This document shows positions 54,085 through 64,000 of a DNA stretch of 64,000 nt, one piece after another. The position numbers were made by a program, and so were the translations under genes. A model generated the notes under the pieces. That model made no database searches. It had not been told where the DNA came from and saw only the letters and a list, made by a program, of their open reading frames with translations. Source of the DNA: Plasmodiophora brassicae (Eukaryota); the NCBI GenBank assembly GCA_036867785.1, contig CP145409.1, positions 1,922,001 through 1,986,000 on the forward strand. Direction: 5' to 3'. Within the stretch, counting starts at the first letter, position 1. The number at the start of each line of letters is the position of its first letter.

Positions 54085-55540
54085 TCAGAAAGTCAAATCG
54101 TCATTCTTCTTGGCCAGAGCTATTCTGGTGTTTTCTGCGAACACGTTAGGACAGTTCCGACGTGGCATCGATCGCGCGTTCCTACCATCATTGTCGTCGT
54201 CGTCGTCGTCTCTTCTACCTTGGACGTCAGGCAGTAAGGGGAGGAACGCCAGTGGGACGAGTTCAAAGACGGCGCAGACGGCGACCATGCTGGGCAGGTT
54301 CCTGAAGCTGGCTGGATGGATTTCGAAGACGTCGGTGAGCAGGCCGCCGCCCAGGTCGCTGATGATTCCGCTGAGGTTCGAAGTGGCGATGATGGCGTTG
54401 TAGACGGACCCTTCGGATCCCTTCGGGGCGATCCTGGCTGCGATGATCGCGATCGGCATGAACGCGATCTGCGCGAAGATCCCGAACGCCAGCGTGCTGG
54501 CCAGCGCTAACACCCAATCGGGAACGAGCAGGAACCGGTTCCAGTTCAGGGCCAGGATCAGGTCTAGGCCCGTCGTAGCGAAATTGCACCATAGCATACG
54601 CCTGAGAAGGTCGGCGAACGTCATGGCGCGCAGCCATCTGCCGAAGACGTAGGATCCGATCAGATACGAGAAGTGACTGGCGATGGTCAACATGGACAGG
54701 AAGTTGGAGGAGAACTTCAAGCGGGACCGCATGAAGAAGAAAACGGTGTTGACCTGGCTGGGCATCGCCGAGAACAACAGGACGAAGGCCGACATGCGGG
54801 CAATTTCCCGATCCTGGAACACGCTCATGAACTGCTCGAACTGGAACGTCACCGTCGCCAGGTGCGGATGCTTGGCGACCTTCTGCTCGGGGATGAACAC
54901 GACGGACAGCAGGCCGCTGACGGCGACCCCCGACGCAATCAGCATGACGTCGTTGGGGCTCAGGCCCCCGTATTCCATGGCGAATCCCGAGACGGCCGCC
55001 GATAGGATCGACCCGATCGCCTGTGCCGTCCAGATGCTCGATGTGAACCTGCCCAGGTCGCCATCGGATTCCTCCTTGACGATCCCGACCACGTAGGCGT
55101 TGATGGCGGCATCGGACACCACCAGGCAGAACGACGAGACAACCAGGCAGGTGGAGAACGCGATTGTGGAGAGCGCCGGGCCGGCGATCGAAACGACGGC
55201 GCAGGCCAGCGAGTGACCGACAAGACCCAAGGCGATGTACGAGACGCGCCTGTACCCGAGCAACGGGTAGTGATCTGACATGAGCGCGTACAGGGGCTTG
55301 GCGATCCATGGGATTGTGGACAGGCCGTTCAGCAGCGCCAGCGTCGACGGTTCGCATTGTAATTCATCCATCAGGATCATCTAGGGCGACCCGGGTCAAT
55401 GCGCGGGGGGCGGGGAGCGTAGAGACGCTCACCTTGATGGGCAGGGCCGGCAGCGTCAGGTTGACGCCCAGGGAGAAGTAGAACCAGTACAGGGCGACCC
55501 TCTGCGCCTGGGCAGAGCGCGCATCGTATTTAACAGACAT
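54085..55540 (-). CDS. BT1-family folate/biopterin MFS transporter (intron 55381-55432)
   Basis: IPWIAKPLYALMSDHYPLLGYRRVSY, about 12 TM segments, FMPIAIIAARIAPKGSEGSVYNAI. Confidence 0.9.
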
Positions 55541-57282: not shown

Positions 57283-57841
57283 TTACAATTCCTTGTCGAG
57301 GTGGTAGAGCAGTCCGGGCAACGCTTCGTACGCCTGGACTTTGGACACCAGCGTCGACATGTTGTCGATCTCATCGGCTTGCAGCAGGTGGAACTCATGC
57401 AGGAACGACACCGTCATCTGGTCGTTGTTCTCCGTTGCCTTTGTCGACATATTCTGCAGGGTGTGCCCAACCTGTACCTCGAGCTGCAGCAGCGTCTTGA
57501 ACACGTCCAGGGCCGACTTCCACTGCGCCGTGTTGACCGCAGGAATTTCAGCGGCGACGGCGACGCCGCCTCTCTTCTGGATGTAGTCGAATATCTTCAA
57601 ACCATGCTGGCGTTCCTCGCTGGACACGGCCACGCAAACGCGTCAGCACACCGGGTCCCCGCGCCCGCGACGACACTTACTCGGCCTCCTTCAGCAGGTA
57701 CGACGAGATGCCGTCAAAGTCGCGGTTCTTGAACCAGAACGACGCCGCCAGGTACGTGTGCGACGCCGACAGCTCCTCGGCCGCCTTCCTGTTGAGCAGC
57801 TCCTCCACGGCGCCGCTCAGTGGCAGCTTGACCGATGCCAT
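57283..57841 (-). CDS. Non-heme ferritin, prokaryotic FtnA-like (intron 57620-57680)
   Basis: LLNRKAAEELSASHTYLAASFWF...EADEERQHGLKIFDYIQKRGG...LEVQV...LQADE...GLLYHLDKEL*. Ferroxidase-type E/E/H/E/Q residues are present. Confidence 0.9.
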
Positions 57842-57909
57842 GTCCGGATTGTGCGCCACGGCGTCGTACGGACGGGCCCCGGCCGGACCCGGTGGCCGGT
57901 ACCGGTGCG

Positions 57910-57993
57910 TGCAGCTGCACTGCGGCACTGCACTGCGGCACTGCACTCATTGCTGTACTGCGGCACTGCAGACTGCACTGTGGCACTGCACTG
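57910..57993. repeat. Tandem degenerate 13-bp repeat (ggcactgcactgc) about 70-150 nt upstream of the ferritin ATG
   Basis: Directly visible. On the ferritin sense strand it yields eight CAGTGC hexamers. Confidence 0.85.
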
Positions 57994-58219
57994 GGGCCCA
58001 CACGGTCAAAACGCACCTGCGAAGCAAGCCGCCAAGGCCCAGAGGCCGATGTTGATACACCAGGCCGCATAGGTGTCGCGACACGGGACTGCTTCGTCGT
58101 AGGGACCCGGCGGAACGCTGTTGAGCAAACGTAGCGCGTCTCCTCGGGCCCGGTAAGGCCTTACCGGTGGATGTGGTTGACCAGTCGCGCACCGTCAGGG
58201 CAGGTGGACACTGTACCGC

Positions 58220-60970
58220 ATGTGGCGCGCGTTTCGTGGATGCTCGACGCGGAACGTGACGCTCCCCGTGAGCGAACAGGTCGCAGGCGTAGAAGTTGCA
58301 GCCACCCTGTCATCCAGGCGTACGCTCGAAGAAGGGCGCGACCTTGATGAGCGACGGGACGCGCACCATGCTCATGGTGTTGTCGATCATCTGCGCGACC
58401 TTCGCAATCGCGACGGTCGAACGGCCTTAATGGTTCCCCGTCACCGTCGCGCTTCGATGGCGCTCCCAAACCGCGTCGGGCCATGGTCGTTCAGGAAGGC
58501 GACCTACTGGCCGTGTTTGACCAATGGAGACGGGTTCACAGTTCGCCATCAATTCGCAACGATGCTGACGCCTTCACGTCGTTTCTACTGGGAGGCAGCG
58601 TGGACTTCGTCAGCGAAGCACGATGTCAACATCCATGAGCGCTGTCTTACGATGGCCGCATAGGAAGCATACGACAGCTGCGATGCTCTGGACGCCATTC
58701 GCGCGTTCCGTGCCCAGATGACGAACGACGATAACGTGACGATCGCCTCACTGAAGTGCGCCCTTCTCCAGTCGAGCACCACCAGGAAGCTCGAAGGCGA
58801 CTTCTTCACGCCAGCGGTCTGGGTCAGACAGGCATACGCGCTCCTGGACGCGCACATCGGTAATCGATCAGTGCAGAACGAATCGCGAAGCGGTATATAA
58901 CAGGGCACTGACCGATAACGGCGGCCACAGCCCCGAGCTGGTACCAGGACCACGTCGTCTGGGACGCGTCATGCGGAACAGCGAACCTTACCCGGCTGCG
59001 AGCGTTCCCCAAACTGCTCCTGTCCACGAAGAACGATCAGGTCGTCGCCCTGGAACGAAACATCGGGGCCGGGCTTACCAATGACGACAGGACCTTCGCG
59101 TTGCGACCCTGCTTGGATACGCCCGGGCACCGTCCGCACAGTGCACGCCGTTCGACTTCCTGGAATCCATGGATGCGCCCGAACCGTTCCTGCCCACGCT
59201 GCAGGCGGCCAACGGGATCGTCTTCCTGAACAACCCGCCGTACAAGACCGCCAACGAGCAGTCGTTCACGACGTCGGTCAAGCGGCACGGGGGCCTGTCG
59301 GCCACCCCCGTCAAACAGGTCTGGGCTCGGCCTGCATGCACACGCCAGTGTGGGGGGACTCAGTTCGCCGTCTCGTCAGGCGATGCGGGACGAGGGCCTA
59401 ACCGCAGGCGGCAACCAGGTACGCTCGGTATCGTCTGCCGCCTCGCCTGGGCGACCTGGCAGTGATTCGTGGGCAGCTGGCGGCCCAGTTCCTCTTCAAG
59501 CTGACGACGATCATGAGGTCGCCAGCGTGCTCGTCGGCGCTGGCAGGCAACGGCGTCTACCTGGCGTCGTACACGCCGGGCAACCTGATCACAGGGCCAG
59601 CCTATTTCCCCTTCATGCGCTACCTGATGACGCACTGGCAGTACGTTGCCGGGTTCACGTTCCCGGCGACCGAATTCCAGGGCGTCGTCGGCCGCTTCTC
59701 CATCGCATTCACGTTGTGGAAGGCGCGCCCACAGTGCGCCCCTGCTGGGCGCGGCCATCGCATCGGCACGTTCCCGATGGCCGCGTTCGAGTATGACGTA
59801 CGTACGAGGCCTGGGGCAGATGACGTTCGGCTAGGACGGCGTAACACGAACATTGCAGGCGGCCACACGCCAACCTAGGCGGGTCGGACAGGTGACGCTT
59901 CGGGCCGTTCCACCGGAGCACCGGATCAACCGCTGGGCGTCGTCGTCGCCTACAAAGCATTGCAGGCCGGCCGTCCCGCTAACGAACCCGGTCAGCGTGT
60001 TGCAGCAGTGCAGGTCGGCAGCGGGCGTTTGGCCAGCTGACGCGCTCGTGCTGAGTGCACTGTTCAGGTACAAAGTGCTGAACGCGCTGCCCGGCGACGC
60101 CCTCGGATACTGCCATTCCAATGGGAACAGCGTCCAGCACAACGACCAGCTCGTCGGGTTGTACTCGTCGGCGTTCGCCGCCGGGCACGGGTTCGCCGTC
60201 CGCCCCGACAACTTCGAGCGAGCGTGCGCGCTCTTCGCCGCCCGGCGCCTCGTGCGCCGCTCAGCGCTAACGTGGCAGGCGGAATACTCGGCGCCGACCT
60301 GCGACCCAGCCGACCCGCGATGGCGCCGGTGGGTCAGGGACGCGGTCGTGTTCGCCCTGTTCGACACCAAGTCCAACCAGTCTGCGTTGCGGGGCCTGCC
60401 TGGCCCGGTACCGTCGCTGTCCAACCCCTGGTTCTGGGCCAGTAAATCGTCGATGCGGGCGCTCGCTGTCGAGGCCGACTTCTCGGACATGGTCGACGAC
60501 ATCGACCGGTGCAGGGCACCCGATCGCCCGTTCGTCGCAGAGTGGCTCCAGAACAACCGCAGTCGACTAGGTCGGTGTGAACGCACTGCAGAACGTGGAA
60601 GGTCTCACAAAGGTCGTCAGGGGACGACGCAAGGCTGCTGTTGGAGTTTGGAGAGCGGATACTTGCGGAAACGATGCCGATGCGCACAGACCTGCCTCAA
60701 CGAGAACGGGCGCTGTTGCACCTTCACGCATGGGACAGCGGATGGTACCAGATCCGACAGGGGCTGAAGCGGCACAGCGAAGGCAAACGCTGGATGCGGG
60801 AATGGGACGAACTGAGGACGCGTCTGGCGGGCCGATTGCGTCCCGGGATCCACGAGTGGGGACTGTTGCCGCAATTCGAGCTGGCGGCGAACAACGATCC
60901 CGGACCCGCCAAACGTCATCGGGACGCAAGTGCAGACGAATGCTCAAAGCGGAACTGTATCAAACATTAA
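58220..60970 (+). CDS. Prokaryote-type (restriction-modification-like, gamma class) amino-DNA methyltransferase with fused specificity-like domain, split by spliceosomal introns
   Basis: Introns 58860-58930, 59041-59090, 59319-59379, 59419-59476, 59798-59858, (60014-60067) and 60571-60620 are all GT-AG and frame-preserving. Motifs: GDFFTP (58796-58813), WDASCGTANL (58960-58989), FDFL, NNPPY (59229-59243), QLAAQFL, EFQGVVGRFSIAFTLW. 5' end uncertain. Confidence 0.78.
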
Positions 60971-61014
60971 CCGGAACATTGAAACGCCCTACCTATGTAG
61001 GTCGGTCGCATTGC

Positions 61015-64000
61015 TCACTCTTCATTCTCAGAGACGTTGCCGAGTTCTGGGTCGGGCCCTTCACCATCGTCGTCAGCGCCGTCGTCAGCATCACCCGGAT
61101 CCCCTTCTTCGTCGCGATCGTCCGACTCGCGACGCTTCCTCTTCTTTTTCGTCTTCTCCGAATCGCGAACCTCGCCCGCAGCCTTGCTGGCATTGAAGCG
61201 GAAGTCGCGGATCGCCGACCGCTTAAAATCGCCCGTAAGCTCGGGCATCTAAAGAGACGACGGTCACGATAGCGCACGAAGAGAATCGGACGTCGCTGTC
61301 CGACCTTGCAAAAGCTTGCGTATTTGATGCACGTTTGCTCGAACTCCTCGAGTTGATAGATCACGTCGGGCAGAACGCGCTTCTCGCGAGCGACGCGCGC
61401 TTTCAGGCTTTTGGGCTTGATCCCGTCACGGGCGTTCTCATCCTGCAGGCGTGTCAATAACGGTGCAAACCACCGACGAACGGAACGAAGGACGTGCCTG
61501 CATGAACTTGAACATGCAATCTGCACCGGCAAACGAACGTTGAGTAATGTAGTCCAGCACGAGCAACGTGCCAGTCTTACACAGAGTAGGCGCAAGGTTG
61601 CCTGCAACGAAGGCGACCAGTTTGCGGAAACGCTTGGAAGGCTCCTCGATTTTCGCGGCAAACATGAACTTCCCGCACGCCACCGCCAGCTTCAGCGAAC
61701 GAATCAGAAGCAGCAGAATCTTGGTCGAGGTGGCCGTATTGGTGTTCTTGATACCAGCCAGCTCTTTGAAGACTTCGAACGACTTGAACAGCTGACTGAA
61801 GACTCCATCAAGAGCGACCATTCGCCTCCTTGCCGGAAGCATACTGGGAAGACCACGACCAGGTGACGCTTTCGCAAGTTTGATGTTCGCCAACAGCCAT
61901 TCCGCATAGGTCAGGTCCGCTTCTATGATGCCAATGATGCGGTCGATCAGCGAAGGGACAGTGATTTCGGACCTGCAGCGTTAAGGTCAGATCGCCGCAT
62001 AGCACGAGAATCGTTCATACTGAGCACGTACACAATACCCAGTTCAGAGCTAGCGGTGGGCATGACCTCGTCGTTGACGTCACCGATCACGGTAATGGAG
62101 TCTTGTGCCAGCACCCGCATGAACTCGTAGGAGCCGCGATAATTCTCCAGGCTCCAGTTGTACACGGCAAGGTCGGCGGCGAGTGTCGGCACAGTGACGG
62201 GAACCGTGCGAAGTTCGAAGAACCACTTGCTGCGGTCCACGAGATGGTCATCGCTGAGAAACGGACGACACACCTTCATCATTGAGAGCACTATCTGCGC
62301 TTCGTCCGGGAACCGCAACGTCCGAACGTTCGCATCGATCGTTTGGTTAAACAGCATCTCCAATAGTTCCACCAACCCAAGAACAGGGTCATACCCATCA
62401 ACAGCGTCCCGTTCGAGAATGGCCTGCACAGCACACGAGTTGACGAAACGCCTGAAACTGTTGCTTCCGAGTTTGGATGTGCAGCTGAGAAGTTCGTTGA
62501 AAGCGGAAAGCGATATTACAGCCGGCGAACTCGACTTCACCGGAGACGCCTTCAACTGACTGTCGAGATCGTCGATAGCTTGCCGCAACATCAATGTTCC
62601 CAGACGACAGCAGTCTTCAACGAAAGTAAGTCTTTCCTCGGAAGAACGTAGGGCCAAGAAGCCCTTAGAGATCGAGGTGATTGCTCCGCGAAGAACATAG
62701 GAGATGAAGGAAGGATTCGCACGAAGAATCGAACGAGCTGCTTCGTCAGGCGCGTTCACGAAAGACGCTCCGGCAGCTTCATCAAGCTACACGTTCAAAA
62801 GTTAGAAACACACGAAACGATGCGACTATACTCCAGCTGACCTCAACCGAGCCATGTAGTGCCGCAAGCACACGCCCGATGAGGACAAAGTTCATGACCT
62901 GACACGCAGGCTGGGCACCCTTGCGGGAGTCGCCAGAGACGGGTTTGCGCTTCTTGGCAGCCCCTTCGGATTTCTCACGAGTCGAAGCCGTTGGGAATAG
63001 GGCGTCCAGTAGCTTGAAGAGTGCTAACACCTATGGGGACGCGTTGGTCACGTTGAAGCGCGGGTAACAGTATCAACAGAGGGGACCTTCGTAAGAGCGG
63101 AAGTGGTGACTCCCTCCGTCATGATTAGAAATCGTACACCGGAATCAATGATATCGACCCACATGCGTGATGACAAACGAAGATTGGGGTCGACTGCAAC
63201 ACTCTGCGACTGCGAAGCTAAGGCAGCAGACCGACCCGTGTCAAAGGCAAAGTCCTCTAGGCGACAGGTTCCCAACTTTCCAAGGACATCCCCAATGAAA
63301 ACAGAGTACTCGACATACAGACGCCGGTCCGCATCAGACTCCTGGCACGCTTCCACGCACTGGCACAAGCATCCAAACAAAGAAGATATCGGCTCGACGA
63401 CAGAACCAGACTGTATGCATCGGTCCAGCTGAAACGGCACGCTGGCGTCCTGTTCGGGATCAATGAAACGAGATAGATGAGATTTCAGGAGGTCAACGAT
63501 GTGCATCCGCAAGGTGGACGACGCCATACGAAATGTCGAATATAGCCTAACGTGGCAGTGTGAACGGACGGCAGCTTGCTGTGTGAGCGCACGCTGTAAC
63601 AATCCATGCACTTCAAGAAAGAATTTGGCGTCGTTCGAAGAGCACGAAGAAGACGAGCTTTGGCTGTTCTGGAAGATATCCGTCGCTTCAGATGACATTC
63701 CGCAGAGCAGGCTCAGGAAGCCATCGACTGTGAAAGGTCGTCAGGTTAGCGCGTGGCACTGCGATTAGACGGGGACGTACTTGCAGACACACGACGTTCC
63801 AGACTTCGCGAAAATATGCTCTTCCGGAGACACACCACCAGGGCACTCGACAAATCATCGCGAAGGCGAAGCAGCGGCATCAGGCAGGTAATGATCTCAC
63901 GAGACCGGCGGAAGTCCATCATCGTCTGATATTGAGTTCACCACTGCACATCGTTCAATCATGGCGCACACGTACGATGTACTCAAAGCTGTTCCGGATT
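61015..64000 (-). CDS. FANCI: Fanconi anemia group I protein (5' part beyond window), multi-exon
   Basis: LEVHGLLQRALTQQAAVR and KARVAREKRVLPDVIYQLEEFE...KRSAIRDFRF match conserved FANCI segments. Basic KKKRKRR tail. Confidence 0.8.

What the first reader, a model, noticed from the sequence alone, without database searches (positions are those of the whole stretch)
58220..60970. Intron-containing bacterial restriction-modification-type DNA methyltransferase domesticated in a eukaryote
Seen: the ORF track shows only fragments, but removing 6-7 short GT-AG introns yields one open frame. Motifs appear in gamma-class order: X (RKLEGDFFTP), I (VVWDASCGTANL), FDFL, IV (FLNNPPY), then QLAAQFL and F.G....IAFTLW. 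About 350 aa follow (LGYCHSNGN...NFERACALFAARR...SNQSALR...NPWFW...WDSGWYQIR...LRPGIHEWGLL). Established: this order with NPPY marks N6-adenine (or N4-cytosine) MTases of Type I/IIG/IIL RM systems, not the eukaryotic MT-A70 or DNMT families. Inference: the gene was acquired horizontally and has since gained introns. The catalytic and SAM-binding motifs are intact and no PD-(D/E)xK nuclease motif is evident to me. It could be a sequence-specific 6mA writer for epigenetic marking, antiviral self-marking or organelle DNA protection. Introns and eukaryotic neighbours (intron-bearing ferritin, FANCI) argue against contamination.
Basis: partly seen in the sequence, partly recalled or inferred. Interest (0 to 1): 0.9.

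Follow-up and report, generated by a model that had tools for sequence, protein, structure and literature searches.

The report
Bacterial-type DNA methylase gene in clubroot parasite
A spliced, transcribed nuclear gene of the clubroot parasite Plasmodiophora brassicae encodes the methylase and C-terminal parts, but not the nuclease part, of a large uncharacterised bacterial and phage family, so it is a plausible but untested DNA adenine methylase.

Summary
Window 58483-60970 (+) is Plasmodiophora brassicae gene PBRA_006996, annotated only as a hypothetical protein (623 aa).

- **Splicing:** RNA-derived contigs show spliced joints for five sense introns. One of these is an unannotated upstream intron that extends the reading frame to an ATG at 58483. 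A sixth intron has weak support at a different acceptor from the annotated one.
- **Family:** the protein has no Pfam, NCBIfam, PADLOC, PHROGs or PDB sequence hit. It nevertheless belongs to a family of 958 proteins found in bacteria, plasmids and phage-like contigs. Most members are about 820 aa, with an N-terminal nuclease-like domain (E..D..ExK..Q...Y), then the methylase, then a conserved C-terminal module.
- **What the parasite keeps:** only the methylase and the C-terminal module. Motifs X, I, III and NPPY are intact, and 40 of 43 highly conserved columns are kept.
- **Methylase class:** profile-profile comparison links the family to HsdM/Eco57I-type adenine DNA methylases (probability 93.5-97.5%). 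It does not link to PrmC/HemK or RNA m2G methylases (2-33%).
- **Relatives:** it sits in a well-supported clade of 10 eukaryote-looking sequences. Four of them keep the nuclease domain and two carry OTU-like protease parts.
- **Not contamination:** ferritin and FANCI flank it, and its GC3 matches host genes.

DNA 6mA activity is inferred, not shown, and no structure could be predicted. This is a new member of a known kind (Iyer et al. 2016).

The parts
58483..58608 (+). Probable first coding exon: 42 aa starting at ATG 58483. It is missing from the annotated model.
   Evidence: One RNA contig of run X1 joins 58608 to 64 across a GT..AG intron, with only 29 nt on the shorter side. The translation is open. 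It has no significant match to the family HMM.
58609..58663 (+). Intron 0 (55 nt, GT..AG), not annotated.
   Evidence: Joint in run X1; splice-site letters checked.
58664..58859 (+). Exon holding the annotated ATG (58718) and motif X, RKLEGDFFTP (58784-58813).
   Evidence: Matches HMM positions 248-301 at E 4.7e-10.
58860..58930 (+). Intron 1 (71 nt).
   Evidence: Spliced joint in X1; annotated model.
58931..59040 (+). Exon with SAM-binding motif I, VVWDASCGTANL (58954-58989), and the STK..DQ stretch.
   Evidence: Matches HMM positions 301-343 at E 7e-12.
59041..59090 (+). Intron 2 (50 nt).
   Evidence: Spliced joint in X1 with 108 nt on the shorter side. The family consensus STL...DL fits the annotated join.
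59091..59318 (+). Exon with motif III (FDFL) and catalytic motif IV, NPPY (59232-59243).
   Evidence: N-P-P is invariant in 53 of 53 rows of alignment A1. Matches HMM positions 344-410 at E 2e-10.
59319..59379 (+). Intron 3 (61 nt), supported by annotation and homology only.
   Evidence: Not seen spliced in any of the 4 runs. If it were retained, the frame would end at a stop.
59380..59418 (+). Mini-exon of 13 aa (AMRDEGLTAGGNQ).
   Evidence: It carries M162, a column conserved in at least 90% of the family. It fills the HMM gap 411-421 between the flanking exon matches.
59419..59476 (+). Intron 4 (58 nt), supported by annotation and homology only.
   Evidence: not seen spliced in the 4 runs.
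59477..59797 (+). Exon with motifs V-VIII (QLAAQFLFKL ... IAFTLW). This is the end of the methylase domain.
   Evidence: Matches HMM positions 422-503 at E 1.3e-18. The hhalign alignment to Eco57I/HsdM-type proteins spans this region.
59798..59858 (+). Intron 5 (61 nt by RNA). The annotated acceptor is at 59834 (37 nt).
   Evidence: A contig of X1 that starts at 59859 carries 12 loose letters identical to 59786-59797. The stretch has GT..AG ends. This is weak, single-contig evidence.
59859..60013 (+). Exon that starts the C-terminal module and contains the family-invariant W314.
60014..60067 (+). Intron 6 (54 nt; in frame and without a stop).
   Evidence: Spliced joints in X1 and X2. X3 has an unspliced contig across it.
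60068..60570 (+). Largest exon: the core of the conserved C-terminal module (LGYCHSNGN ... NFERACALFAARR ... SNQSALR ... NPWFW).
   Evidence: The ORF piece matches HMM positions 521-731 at E 1.4e-51. It is 100% identical to P0001.
60571..60620 (+). Intron 7 (50 nt).
   Evidence: Spliced joints in X1, X2 and X3. X4 has an unspliced contig across it.
60621..60970 (+). Last exon: the WDSGWYQIR motif, a basic C-terminal tail (KRHR) and the stop codon at 60968-60970.
   Evidence: Matches HMM positions 727-814 at E 1.9e-19. Basic tails recur in the eukaryote-like clade.
58000..59713 (-). Spliced antisense RNA over the 5' half of the gene. Its minus-strand introns are 58588-58650, 58844-58912, 59020-59078 and 59332-59402. 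One contig is continuous with the ferritin gene.
   Evidence: CT..AC joints in X2, X3 and X4. The ends are canonical GT..AG on the minus strand, and there is no convincing ORF.

Best explanation
PBRA_006996 is a real, expressed nuclear gene of Plasmodiophora brassicae. It descends from a prokaryotic and mobile-element family of single-chain proteins built as a nuclease-like domain, a gamma-class amino-methyltransferase and a conserved C-terminal module, an architecture like Type IIG/IIB restriction-modification enzymes.

The parasite's copy keeps the methyltransferase (about residues 1-255 of P0001) and the C-terminal module (about 260-600). It has no nuclease domain, so it would act as an orphan enzyme.

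Inferred mechanism:
1. The enzyme binds S-adenosylmethionine through motifs X, I and III.
2. It flips a target adenine into the NPPY pocket.
3. It methylates N6 of that adenine in DNA.
4. The C-terminal module supplies DNA binding or target choice.
5. A basic C-terminal tail (KRHR) may direct the protein to the nucleus.

Shown here: the gene structure, transcription and splicing, family membership, intact motifs and absence of the nuclease domain. Inferred: DNA as the substrate, N6-adenine chemistry, sequence specificity and nuclear location.
For: **Gene and expression**
- The coding sequence is identical to the annotated P. brassicae protein, with 8 exons.
- Sense GT..AG joints appear in contigs of 3 of the 4 runs laid, covering introns 0, 1, 2, 6 and 7, with a loose end for intron 5.
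- Eukaryotic genes flank it, and its GC3 is 0.82 against 0.82 for BT1 and 0.81 for the larger ferritin exon.

**Family**
- The exhaustive search found 958 proteins at E<=1e-3 and 281 at E<=1e-30.
- P0001 aligns to the query-free HMM at positions 260-814 of 825, E 8e-153.

**Methylase class**
- N-P-P is invariant in 53 of 53 rows.
- P0001 keeps 40 of 43 columns that are at least 90% conserved in the other 52 rows.
- The family profile against PDB sequences lists 6 chains at E<=1. The top five are adenine DNA methylases or Type I M subunits (7lo5 at 3.7e-4, 3ufb at 5.4e-4, M.BseCI at 0.054), with motifs X, I and IV aligned.
- hhalign gives 96.9% and 97.5% against 5 Eco57I/HsdM-type proteins, and 95.1% and 93.5% against HsdM-like sets. 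It gives 2.1% and 32.8% against PrmC/HemK-like proteins and 28.9% against UPF0020 RNA methylases.
- Family member P0004 passes the Pfam cut-offs for both N6_Mtase (33.5 bits against 20.4) and Eco57I (28.1 against 25.3).

**DNA context of the family**
- 30 of the 53 aligned rows carry an N-terminal domain. In those rows D, E-x-K, Q and Y are invariant in 30 of 30.
- Four of the 10 closest, eukaryote-like relatives keep that domain.

**C-terminal part as a separable module**
- In 22 of 160 loci it is a separate adjacent ORF, split at HMM position about 500-505.
- A roughly 110-aa unit (HMM 536-648) occurs in tandem copies in P0004 and P0013.
Against: - There is no biochemical or methylome evidence.
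- P0001 itself has no hit in Pfam, NCBIfam, PADLOC, PHROGs or PDB sequences.
- Only 5 of 53 family members touch Pfam Eco57I and 2 of 53 touch N6_Mtase at E<=0.01.
- The known-family profiles used for hhalign were thin (2-5 sequences each).
- The usual acidic residue at the end of motif II is replaced by a conserved S-T, and the second glycine of motif I is alanine in P0001.
- The C-terminal module shows no similarity to HsdS specificity domains (hhalign probability 0.1%). It is unusually conserved for a target-recognition domain.
- The nuclease assignment in relatives rests on a motif pattern only; hhalign against PDDEXK_1 gives 1.1%.
- Introns 3 and 4 were not seen spliced in any of the 4 runs.
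- A more abundant antisense RNA covers the 5' half of the gene.
- No structure could be predicted.
- One clade member is named 'predicted RNA methylase' by its source. This is an automatic name.
Confidence: 0.58

Rival explanations
1. The protein is an RNA adenine methyltransferase. A methylase of restriction-modification origin would have been re-used on mRNA or another RNA, as Iyer et al. propose for PCIF1 and other eukaryotic clades.
For: - Iyer et al. 2016 (PMC4738411, abstract and section 9 read) state that 4-5 of the eukaryotic acquisitions were recruited as RNA methylases.
- The nuclease domain is lost here.
- One clade member carries the automatic name 'predicted RNA methylase'.
- 8 of 10 clade members have NPPF instead of NPPY. 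From recall, both DNA and RNA enzymes can have this motif.
Against: - No RNA-binding domain was found.
- Four of 10 clade relatives keep the nuclease-like domain with its motif residues, which points to DNA.
- hhalign to RNA m2G methylases gives 28.9% over only 19 columns, against 93.5-97.5% for HsdM/Eco57I types.
Confidence: 0.13
2. The gene is a remnant of a selfish restriction-modification-like element or viral insertion. It is still transcribed, but it is catalytically dead or has been re-used for a non-catalytic role such as DNA binding.
For: - The nuclease domain is lost.
- Motif I has A in place of the second G, and three highly conserved columns are changed (L117F, W247F, W406A).
- P0001 has a long end branch in the tree (0.95-1.07).
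- Antisense RNA is dominant over the 5' half in 3 of 4 runs.
Against: - The open frame is maintained across 8-9 exons.
- 40 of 43 highly conserved columns are kept, including NPPY, motif X and motif III.
- Spliced sense RNA exists.
- GC3 is host-like.
- Partial relatives at 53% and 32% identity conserve the C-terminal module.
Confidence: 0.2
3. It methylates N4 of cytosine in DNA rather than N6 of adenine.
For: From recall, gamma- and beta-class amino-methyltransferases include N4-cytosine enzymes with related motifs.
Against: - Motif IV is NPPY, or NPPF in relatives. From recall, N4-cytosine enzymes usually have SPP(Y/F).
- All named PDB matches of the profile are adenine-specific enzymes or Type I M subunits.
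Confidence: 0.05
4. The stretch is bacterial or phage contamination, or a mis-assembly, and not a P. brassicae gene.
For: Nearly all named relatives are bacterial.
Against: - It has eight short GT-AG introns, and spliced contigs are 100% identical to the window in runs from 4 studies.
- Intron-bearing ferritin and FANCI lie within 600 nt on either side.
- The source contig is 337 kb, and GC3 is host-like.
Confidence: 0.01

Closest known systems
Type I HsdM and Eco57I/TaqI-type gamma-class N6-adenine DNA methyltransferases (Pfam N6_Mtase PF02384 and Eco57I PF07669; 'Group 2' of Iyer et al. 2016)
   Same: It has the same motif order (X, I, III, IV = NPPY, then V-VIII). hhalign gives probability 93.5-97.5%. 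The profile matches solved adenine methylases with those motifs aligned.
   Different: P0001 has no direct Pfam hit. Motif II lacks the usual acidic residue. The C-terminal module is unrelated by sequence to HsdS. The family lies outside Pfam, NCBIfam, PADLOC and PHROGs coverage.
Single-chain Type IIG/IIL and Type IIB restriction-modification enzymes (for example the MmeI, Eco57I and BcgI types; architecture recalled, not tested here)
   Same: The long bacterial relatives have the same layout: a nuclease-like N-terminus, a gamma methylase and a C-terminal module in one chain of about 820 aa. They stand alone, with no conserved partner gene; the commonest neighbour cluster occurs in 16 of 160 loci. 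They sit on plasmids and phage-like contigs. In 22 loci the C-terminal part is a separate ORF, like a specificity subunit.
   Different: The P. brassicae protein has no nuclease domain. No family member matches the MmeI-specific Pfam families. Restriction activity is untested in any member.
[quoted passage not shown]
   Same: The host is a rhizarian. The methylase is of the EcoKI/TaqI group and is followed by a C-terminal module. Relatives in the clade keep an N-terminal nuclease-like domain.
   Different: Those clades are described as fused to the MTase-S (HsdS-like) domain, and no such similarity was found here. P. brassicae is not named in that paper's main text (0 occurrences). Their accession lists are in supplements that I could not open, so identity with clade 5 or 6 remains open.
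MT-A70 family 6mA writers of eukaryotes (AMT1/MTA1 complex)
   Same: The proposed product, 6mA in nuclear DNA, would be the same.
   Different: They belong to a different methylase class and have a different motif order. P0001 has no Pfam MT-A70 hit.

Membership tests
Gamma-class N6-adenine DNA methyltransferases (N6_Mtase/Eco57I type) | Motif order X - I - (II) - III - IV - V..VIII, with the recognition part at the C-terminus | tested here: met
   P0001 has RKLEGDFFTP at residues 23-32, VVWDASCGTANL at 56-67, DFL at 106-108, NPPY at 132-135, then QLAAQFL and IAFTLW. The hhalign alignment covers these motifs.
Gamma-class N6-adenine DNA methyltransferases (N6_Mtase/Eco57I type) | Catalytic (N/D)PP(Y/F/W) tetrapeptide | tested here: met
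   NPPY lies at window 59232-59243. N132, P133 and P134 are invariant in 53 of 53 rows. Eight of 10 clade members have NPPF.
Gamma-class N6-adenine DNA methyltransferases (N6_Mtase/Eco57I type) | Significant similarity to the family's sequence models | tested here: inconclusive
   Directly, P0001 has 0 Pfam or NCBIfam hits. Of 53 family members, 5 reach Eco57I and 2 reach N6_Mtase at E<=0.01. At profile level, hhalign gives 93.5-97.5% and the PDB profile hits have E 3.7e-4 and 5.4e-4. Member P0004 passes both Pfam cut-offs.
Gamma-class N6-adenine DNA methyltransferases (N6_Mtase/Eco57I type) | Class I methyltransferase fold with a SAM pocket | not testable with these tools
The protein atlas holds no model.
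Gamma-class N6-adenine DNA methyltransferases (N6_Mtase/Eco57I type) | Transfers methyl to N6 of adenine in DNA | not testable with these tools
   This needs a methylome or an enzyme assay.
Single-chain Type IIG/IIB-like restriction-modification enzyme | Nuclease domain in the same chain | tested here: not met
   P0001 starts at HMM position 260 of 825. No match to HMM positions 1-247 exists anywhere in the 64-kb window at E<=1. In relatives, the E..D..ExK..Q...Y pattern is invariant in 30 of 30 long rows, but hhalign against PDDEXK_1 is not significant (1.1%).
Single-chain Type IIG/IIB-like restriction-modification enzyme | Target-recognition domain or subunit | tested here: inconclusive
   The C-terminal module is separable, being its own ORF in 22 of 160 loci, and it contains a duplicable unit of about 110 aa. 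It shows no similarity to HsdS (0.1%).
Iyer et al. 2016 Group-2 clades 5/6 (rhizarian and basal-fungal methylase fused to MTase-S) | Fusion to an MTase-S (HsdS-like) domain | tested here: inconclusive
   hhalign of the C-terminal part against 6 HsdS proteins gives probability 0.1%. The profile was thin and these domains are variable. A fold test was not possible.
Iyer et al. 2016 Group-2 clades 5/6 (rhizarian and basal-fungal methylase fused to MTase-S) | Sequence identity with the listed members | not testable with these tools
   The accessions are in supplements, which are closed. The main text has no mention of Plasmodiophora.
   hhalign gives 2.1% and 32.8% for the PrmC-like pair and 28.9% over 19 columns for UPF0020, against 93.5-97.5% for HsdM/Eco57I types.

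The most novel reading that the evidence does not exclude
The 10-sequence clade around PBRA_006996 could represent complete single-chain restriction-modification enzymes working in protist nuclei. Four members keep the nuclease-like domain with its motif residues. Two carry OTU-like protease parts, one confirmed by Pfam. Several end in basic, NLS-like tails. On this reading P. brassicae keeps only the methylase half, as an orphan sequence-specific 6mA writer that marks its own nuclear DNA. That would be a eukaryotic self/non-self DNA-marking system inherited from phage or plasmid enzymes.
Probability: 0.15. Interest if true: 0.8.

Novelty: new member of a known kind. Interest (0 to 1): 0.47.

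Why it matters
Whether eukaryotes outside the MT-A70/AMT1 lineages carry real, enzyme-written 6mA is disputed. A rhizarian parasite with an intact, expressed methylase of restriction-modification type gives a direct test: look for motif-linked 6mA in long-read data, or express the cDNA in a methylation-free host.

The work also brings to light a family of about 1000 proteins in bacteria, plasmids and phage-like contigs. They combine a nuclease-like domain, a methylase and a conserved C-terminal module, and none of the four profile libraries used here recognises them. They may be an undescribed type of single-chain restriction-modification enzyme.

For clubroot biology the gene is only a candidate epigenetic factor, and no role in disease is implied.

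Tried and rejected
**Searches with no useful result**
- Pfam on the seven raw ORF pieces gave nothing relevant.
- P0001 had no hit in Pfam, NCBIfam, PDB sequences, PADLOC or PHROGs.
- Ten relatives run against NCBIfam gave only noise-level rows.
- phmmer of the 75-aa NPPY piece, P0004 and P0022 against PDB sequences found nothing.
- The INPHARED phage collection had no match to P0012.
- The metagenome contig scan (25 loci, at most 31% identity over long matches) did not recover the contigs of the eukaryote-like clade.
- The word-index search with the clade profile returned no named eukaryotic relative; 16 proteins were listed and only P0001 carries a name.
- Two protein atlas calls found feature look-alikes only and no structure.

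- No whole genome is held for this window.
- No RNA holder was listed by the look-up of sequencing runs. The runs were typed 'RNA?' by guess, and their spliced contigs are what I used.

**Tests that came out negative**
- C-terminal part against HsdS: hhalign probability 0.1%.
- N-terminal domain of relatives against PDDEXK_1: 1.1%.
- A1 against two Eco57I-like proteins alone: 21.7%, with a poor template alignment.
- The NCLDV capsid family was absent from 5 large IMG/VR records, but the search had no positive control.

**Readings considered and dropped**
- A giant-virus origin is not supported and not excluded.

**Literature**
- 0 papers for PBRA_006996.
- 6 papers for P. brassicae plus N6-methyladenine and 12 for P. 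brassicae plus DNA methyltransferase. By their listings all concern the plant host or unrelated topics.
- 1 paper for 6mA plus Rhizaria plus AMT1, and 10 for the Type IIG/eukaryote terms. None concerns this gene by its listing.
Full report
**What is there.** The + strand between about 58480 and 60970 holds open-frame fragments in all three frames. The 167-aa piece window:60069-60569 is 100% identical to P0001, 'hypothetical protein PBRA_006996 [Plasmodiophora brassicae]'. P0001 is 623 aa and comes from a 337,454-bp contig. It maps back to the window as 8 exons with 7 GT-AG introns of 37-71 nt.

As a test against chance, I built an HMM from the 52 other aligned family members and scanned all 1706 six-frame pieces of the whole window. 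It matched exactly six pieces. All lie on the + strand between 58664 and 60967 and run collinear with HMM positions 248-814, with E-values from 1.4e-51 to 4.7e-10.

**Transcription and splicing.** I laid four public runs on 58000-61200. All laid contigs were identical to the window. The runs are typed 'RNA?' by guess, but their contigs carry spliced joints.
- Sense (GT..AG) joints support intron 0 (58609-58663, X1), intron 1 (58860-58930, X1), intron 2 (59041-59090, X1), intron 6 (60014-60067, X1 and X2) and intron 7 (60571-60620, X1, X2 and X3).
- Intron 0 is not in the annotation. It opens the frame to an ATG at 58483 and adds 42 + 18 residues. The evidence is one contig with 29 nt on the shorter side.
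- A contig of X1 that begins at 59859 carries 12 loose letters identical to the end of exon 5. This suggests intron 5 is 59798-59858 and not the annotated 59798-59834, which would remove eight residues.
- Introns 3 and 4 were not seen spliced. The contigs crossing them are unspliced (X1, X2, X3, X4), as are one X3 contig across intron 6 and one X4 contig across intron 7.
- Introns 3 and 4 therefore rest on the annotation and on homology. The 13-aa mini-exon carries the conserved M162 and fills HMM positions 411-421 between the flanking matches. Retaining intron 3 would run into a stop.

**Not contamination.** Pfam finds ferritin in two minus-strand exons at 57283-57946, FANCI domains on the minus strand from 60993 to beyond 63740, and a BT1 transporter at 54085-55380. 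GC3 of the gene is 0.82, the same as BT1 (0.82) and the larger ferritin exon (0.81).

**Family.** P0001 alone hits nothing in Pfam, NCBIfam, PDB sequences, PADLOC or PHROGs.
- The exhaustive HMMER search found 958 proteins at E<=1e-3, 666 at E<=1e-10 and 281 at E<=1e-30. Many align over residues of about 15-590 at 26-37% identity.
- Relatives are encoded in bacterial and archaeal genomes. Hosts include Clostridium, Bacteroidales, Saccharibacteria, Staphylococcus, Streptococcus and others.
- They occur on 24 plasmid records, where every listed hit with annotation is 'hypothetical protein' (one record has none).
- They occur in IMG/VR contigs, 107 of 164 candidates. They are absent from the isolate-phage collection.
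- No neighbouring gene is conserved. The commonest neighbour cluster occurs in 16 of 160 loci.

**Architecture of the family.**
- Of the 53 rows of alignment A1, 30 have at least 240 residues before motif X. In all 30 a D, an E-x-K, a Q and a Y four residues later are invariant, and an upstream E is present in 28 of 30. This is the pattern of PD-(D/E)xK nucleases. However, a profile comparison with PDDEXK_1 proteins was not significant (1.1%), so the nuclease assignment rests on the motif only.
- In 22 of 160 loci the protein is split at HMM position about 500-505. One ORF holds the N-terminal domain and the methylase, and a separate adjacent ORF holds the C-terminal 300 residues.
- P0004 and P0013 contain tandem copies of a unit of about 110 aa, HMM 536-648.
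- The C-terminal part is thus a separable module, as a specificity subunit would be. It shows no similarity to HsdS (0.1%) and is more conserved than such domains usually are.
- P0001 aligns to HMM positions 260-814 only. No trace of positions 1-247 exists in the window. Ferritin starts about 540 nt upstream of the probable ATG, which leaves no room for a further domain.

**Which methylase class.**
- N-P-P of motif IV is invariant in 53 of 53 rows. P0001 keeps 40 of 43 columns that are at least 90% conserved in the other rows.
- The A1 profile against PDB sequences lists 6 chains at E<=1. The top five are adenine-specific DNA methylases or Type I M subunits, led by 7lo5 (3.7e-4) and 3ufb (5.4e-4), with motifs X, I and IV aligned. 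The sixth is a noise-level ubiquitin-family chain.
- I ran local hhalign against small alignments of proteins picked by Pfam models from five bacterial genomes:

| Compared with | A1 region used | Probability | E-value |
|---|---|---|---|
| 5 Eco57I/HsdM-type proteins | whole A1 | 96.9% | 1.9e-10 |
| 5 Eco57I/HsdM-type proteins | methylase part only | 97.5% | 7.3e-12 |
| HsdM-like set (3 proteins) | whole A1 | 95.1% | 3.4e-8 |
| HsdM-like set (5 proteins) | methylase part only | 93.5% | 2.3e-7 |
| 2 PrmC/HemK-like proteins | whole A1 | 2.1% | 0.023 |
| 2 PrmC/HemK-like proteins | methylase part only | 32.8% | 4.6e-4 |
| 4 UPF0020 RNA methylases | methylase part only | 28.9% (19 columns) | 5.9e-4 |

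- These profiles are thin, so the contrast is indicative rather than decisive.
- Only 5 of 53 members reach Eco57I and 2 of 53 reach N6_Mtase at E<=0.01 in Pfam. P0004 passes both curated cut-offs.
The structural version of the test could not be run.

**Where the gene came from.**
- In a FastTree of 272 rows, P0001 lies in a 10-row clade with support 100. I dropped 34 rows with under 70% of columns filled before building it, and collapsed 10 identical rows.
- IQ-TREE (quick search, LG+G4) on 64 representatives gives the same clade at SH-aLRT 99, with P0001 sister to the other nine at 91.
- None of the nine has a taxon label. They come from contigs of 3-19 kb.
- They look eukaryotic or eukaryote-viral. 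They have basic tails (KRKR-like), serine- or acid-rich low-complexity stretches, and variable ends. One has an N-terminal OTU protease domain found by Pfam (P0015). One has an OTU-like motif after its C-terminal module, seen by eye only (P0006).
- Four of them (P0006, P0015, P0021, P0117) keep the N-terminal domain with the ExK and Q...Y residues.
- Closer partial relatives exist. P0127 is 53% identical over 165 aa, and its ORF ends where P. brassicae intron 7 begins. P0002 is 32% identical over 376 aa.
- The acquisition therefore predates P. brassicae. The donor is not resolved. The nearest outgroups are unlabelled short forms, and five large IMG/VR records with the family lack an NCLDV capsid gene in a search that had no positive control.

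**Comparison with what is known.** I read the abstract and section 9 of Iyer, Zhang and Aravind 2016 (PMC4738411) and searched its text for terms.
[quoted passage not shown] One Reticulomyxa copy keeps an N-terminal restriction endonuclease.
- The present gene fits that picture in kind. P. brassicae is not mentioned in the main text, and the accession lists are in supplements that I could not open. It may be the same clade or a further acquisition.
- No paper in the library mentions PBRA_006996 or P. brassicae's own DNA methylases (listings only).

**Verdict.** The most likely function is an orphan N6-adenine DNA methyltransferase (about 0.58). Rivals are an inactive or re-purposed remnant (0.20), an RNA methylase (0.13) and an N4-cytosine enzyme (0.05).

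Noticed in passing
window 58000-59713, minus strand: A spliced antisense RNA covers the 5' half of the methylase gene. It has four canonical minus-strand introns: 58588-58650, 58844-58912, 59020-59078 and 59332-59402. It was seen in 3 of 4 runs at higher contig depth than the sense-spliced contigs. One contig is continuous with the ferritin gene. It has no convincing ORF. It could be a long spliced ferritin 5' UTR or read-through from FANCI.
   Followed up: partly
window 58483-58717 and 59798-59858: The annotated model PBRA_006996 probably starts too late: an unannotated intron at 58609-58663 opens the frame back to ATG 58483. It also probably uses the wrong acceptor for intron 5 (59834 instead of 59858). 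Each point rests on a single contig.
   Followed up: partly
window 57915-57970: A tandem repeat with a 13-nt unit, CTGCACTGCGGCA, of about 4.4 copies lies in the short spacer between the divergent ferritin and methylase genes.
   Followed up: no
window 60970-61015: The methylase gene (stop at 60968-70) and the convergent FANCI gene (the last minus-strand ORF reaches down to about 60993-61015) end within about 25-45 nt of each other. Their 3' UTRs must overlap.
   Followed up: no
L017, L047, L053, L057, L059-L069, L071-L076, L078 (IMG/VR loci): In 22 viral loci the family protein is naturally split at HMM position about 500-505. One ORF holds the nuclease-like domain and the methylase, and a separate adjacent ORF holds the C-terminal module, as in enzymes with a separate specificity subunit.
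   Followed up: partly
P0004 (1004 aa) and P0013 (777 aa): These proteins hold several tandem, diverged copies of a unit of about 110 aa from the C-terminal module (HMM 536-648). P0004 holds five copies and P0013 holds four full or partial ones. They may be alternative recognition cassettes.
   Followed up: no
L140-L160 (Bacteroidia and other bacterial loci): A distant subgroup has a second, shorter methylase-only paralogue directly downstream of the long gene in 14 loci. Only L150's copy passes E<=1e-10 to the family HMM. The arrangement recalls systems with a bifunctional enzyme plus a separate methylase.
   Followed up: partly
P0015 (1195 aa) and P0006 (1221 aa): These are the closest full-length relatives of the P. 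brassicae protein. P0015 carries an N-terminal OTU cysteine-protease domain (Pfam E 1.5e-6). P0006 carries an OTU-like motif after its C-terminal module, seen by eye only. Both also have lysine-rich tails.
   Followed up: no
plasmid records: L161, L162, L163, L220, L221: Bacterial members often sit on plasmids, some of only 9-13 kb, beside replication or partition genes (RepA, ParM, CopG). Everywhere they are annotated 'hypothetical protein'.
   Followed up: no
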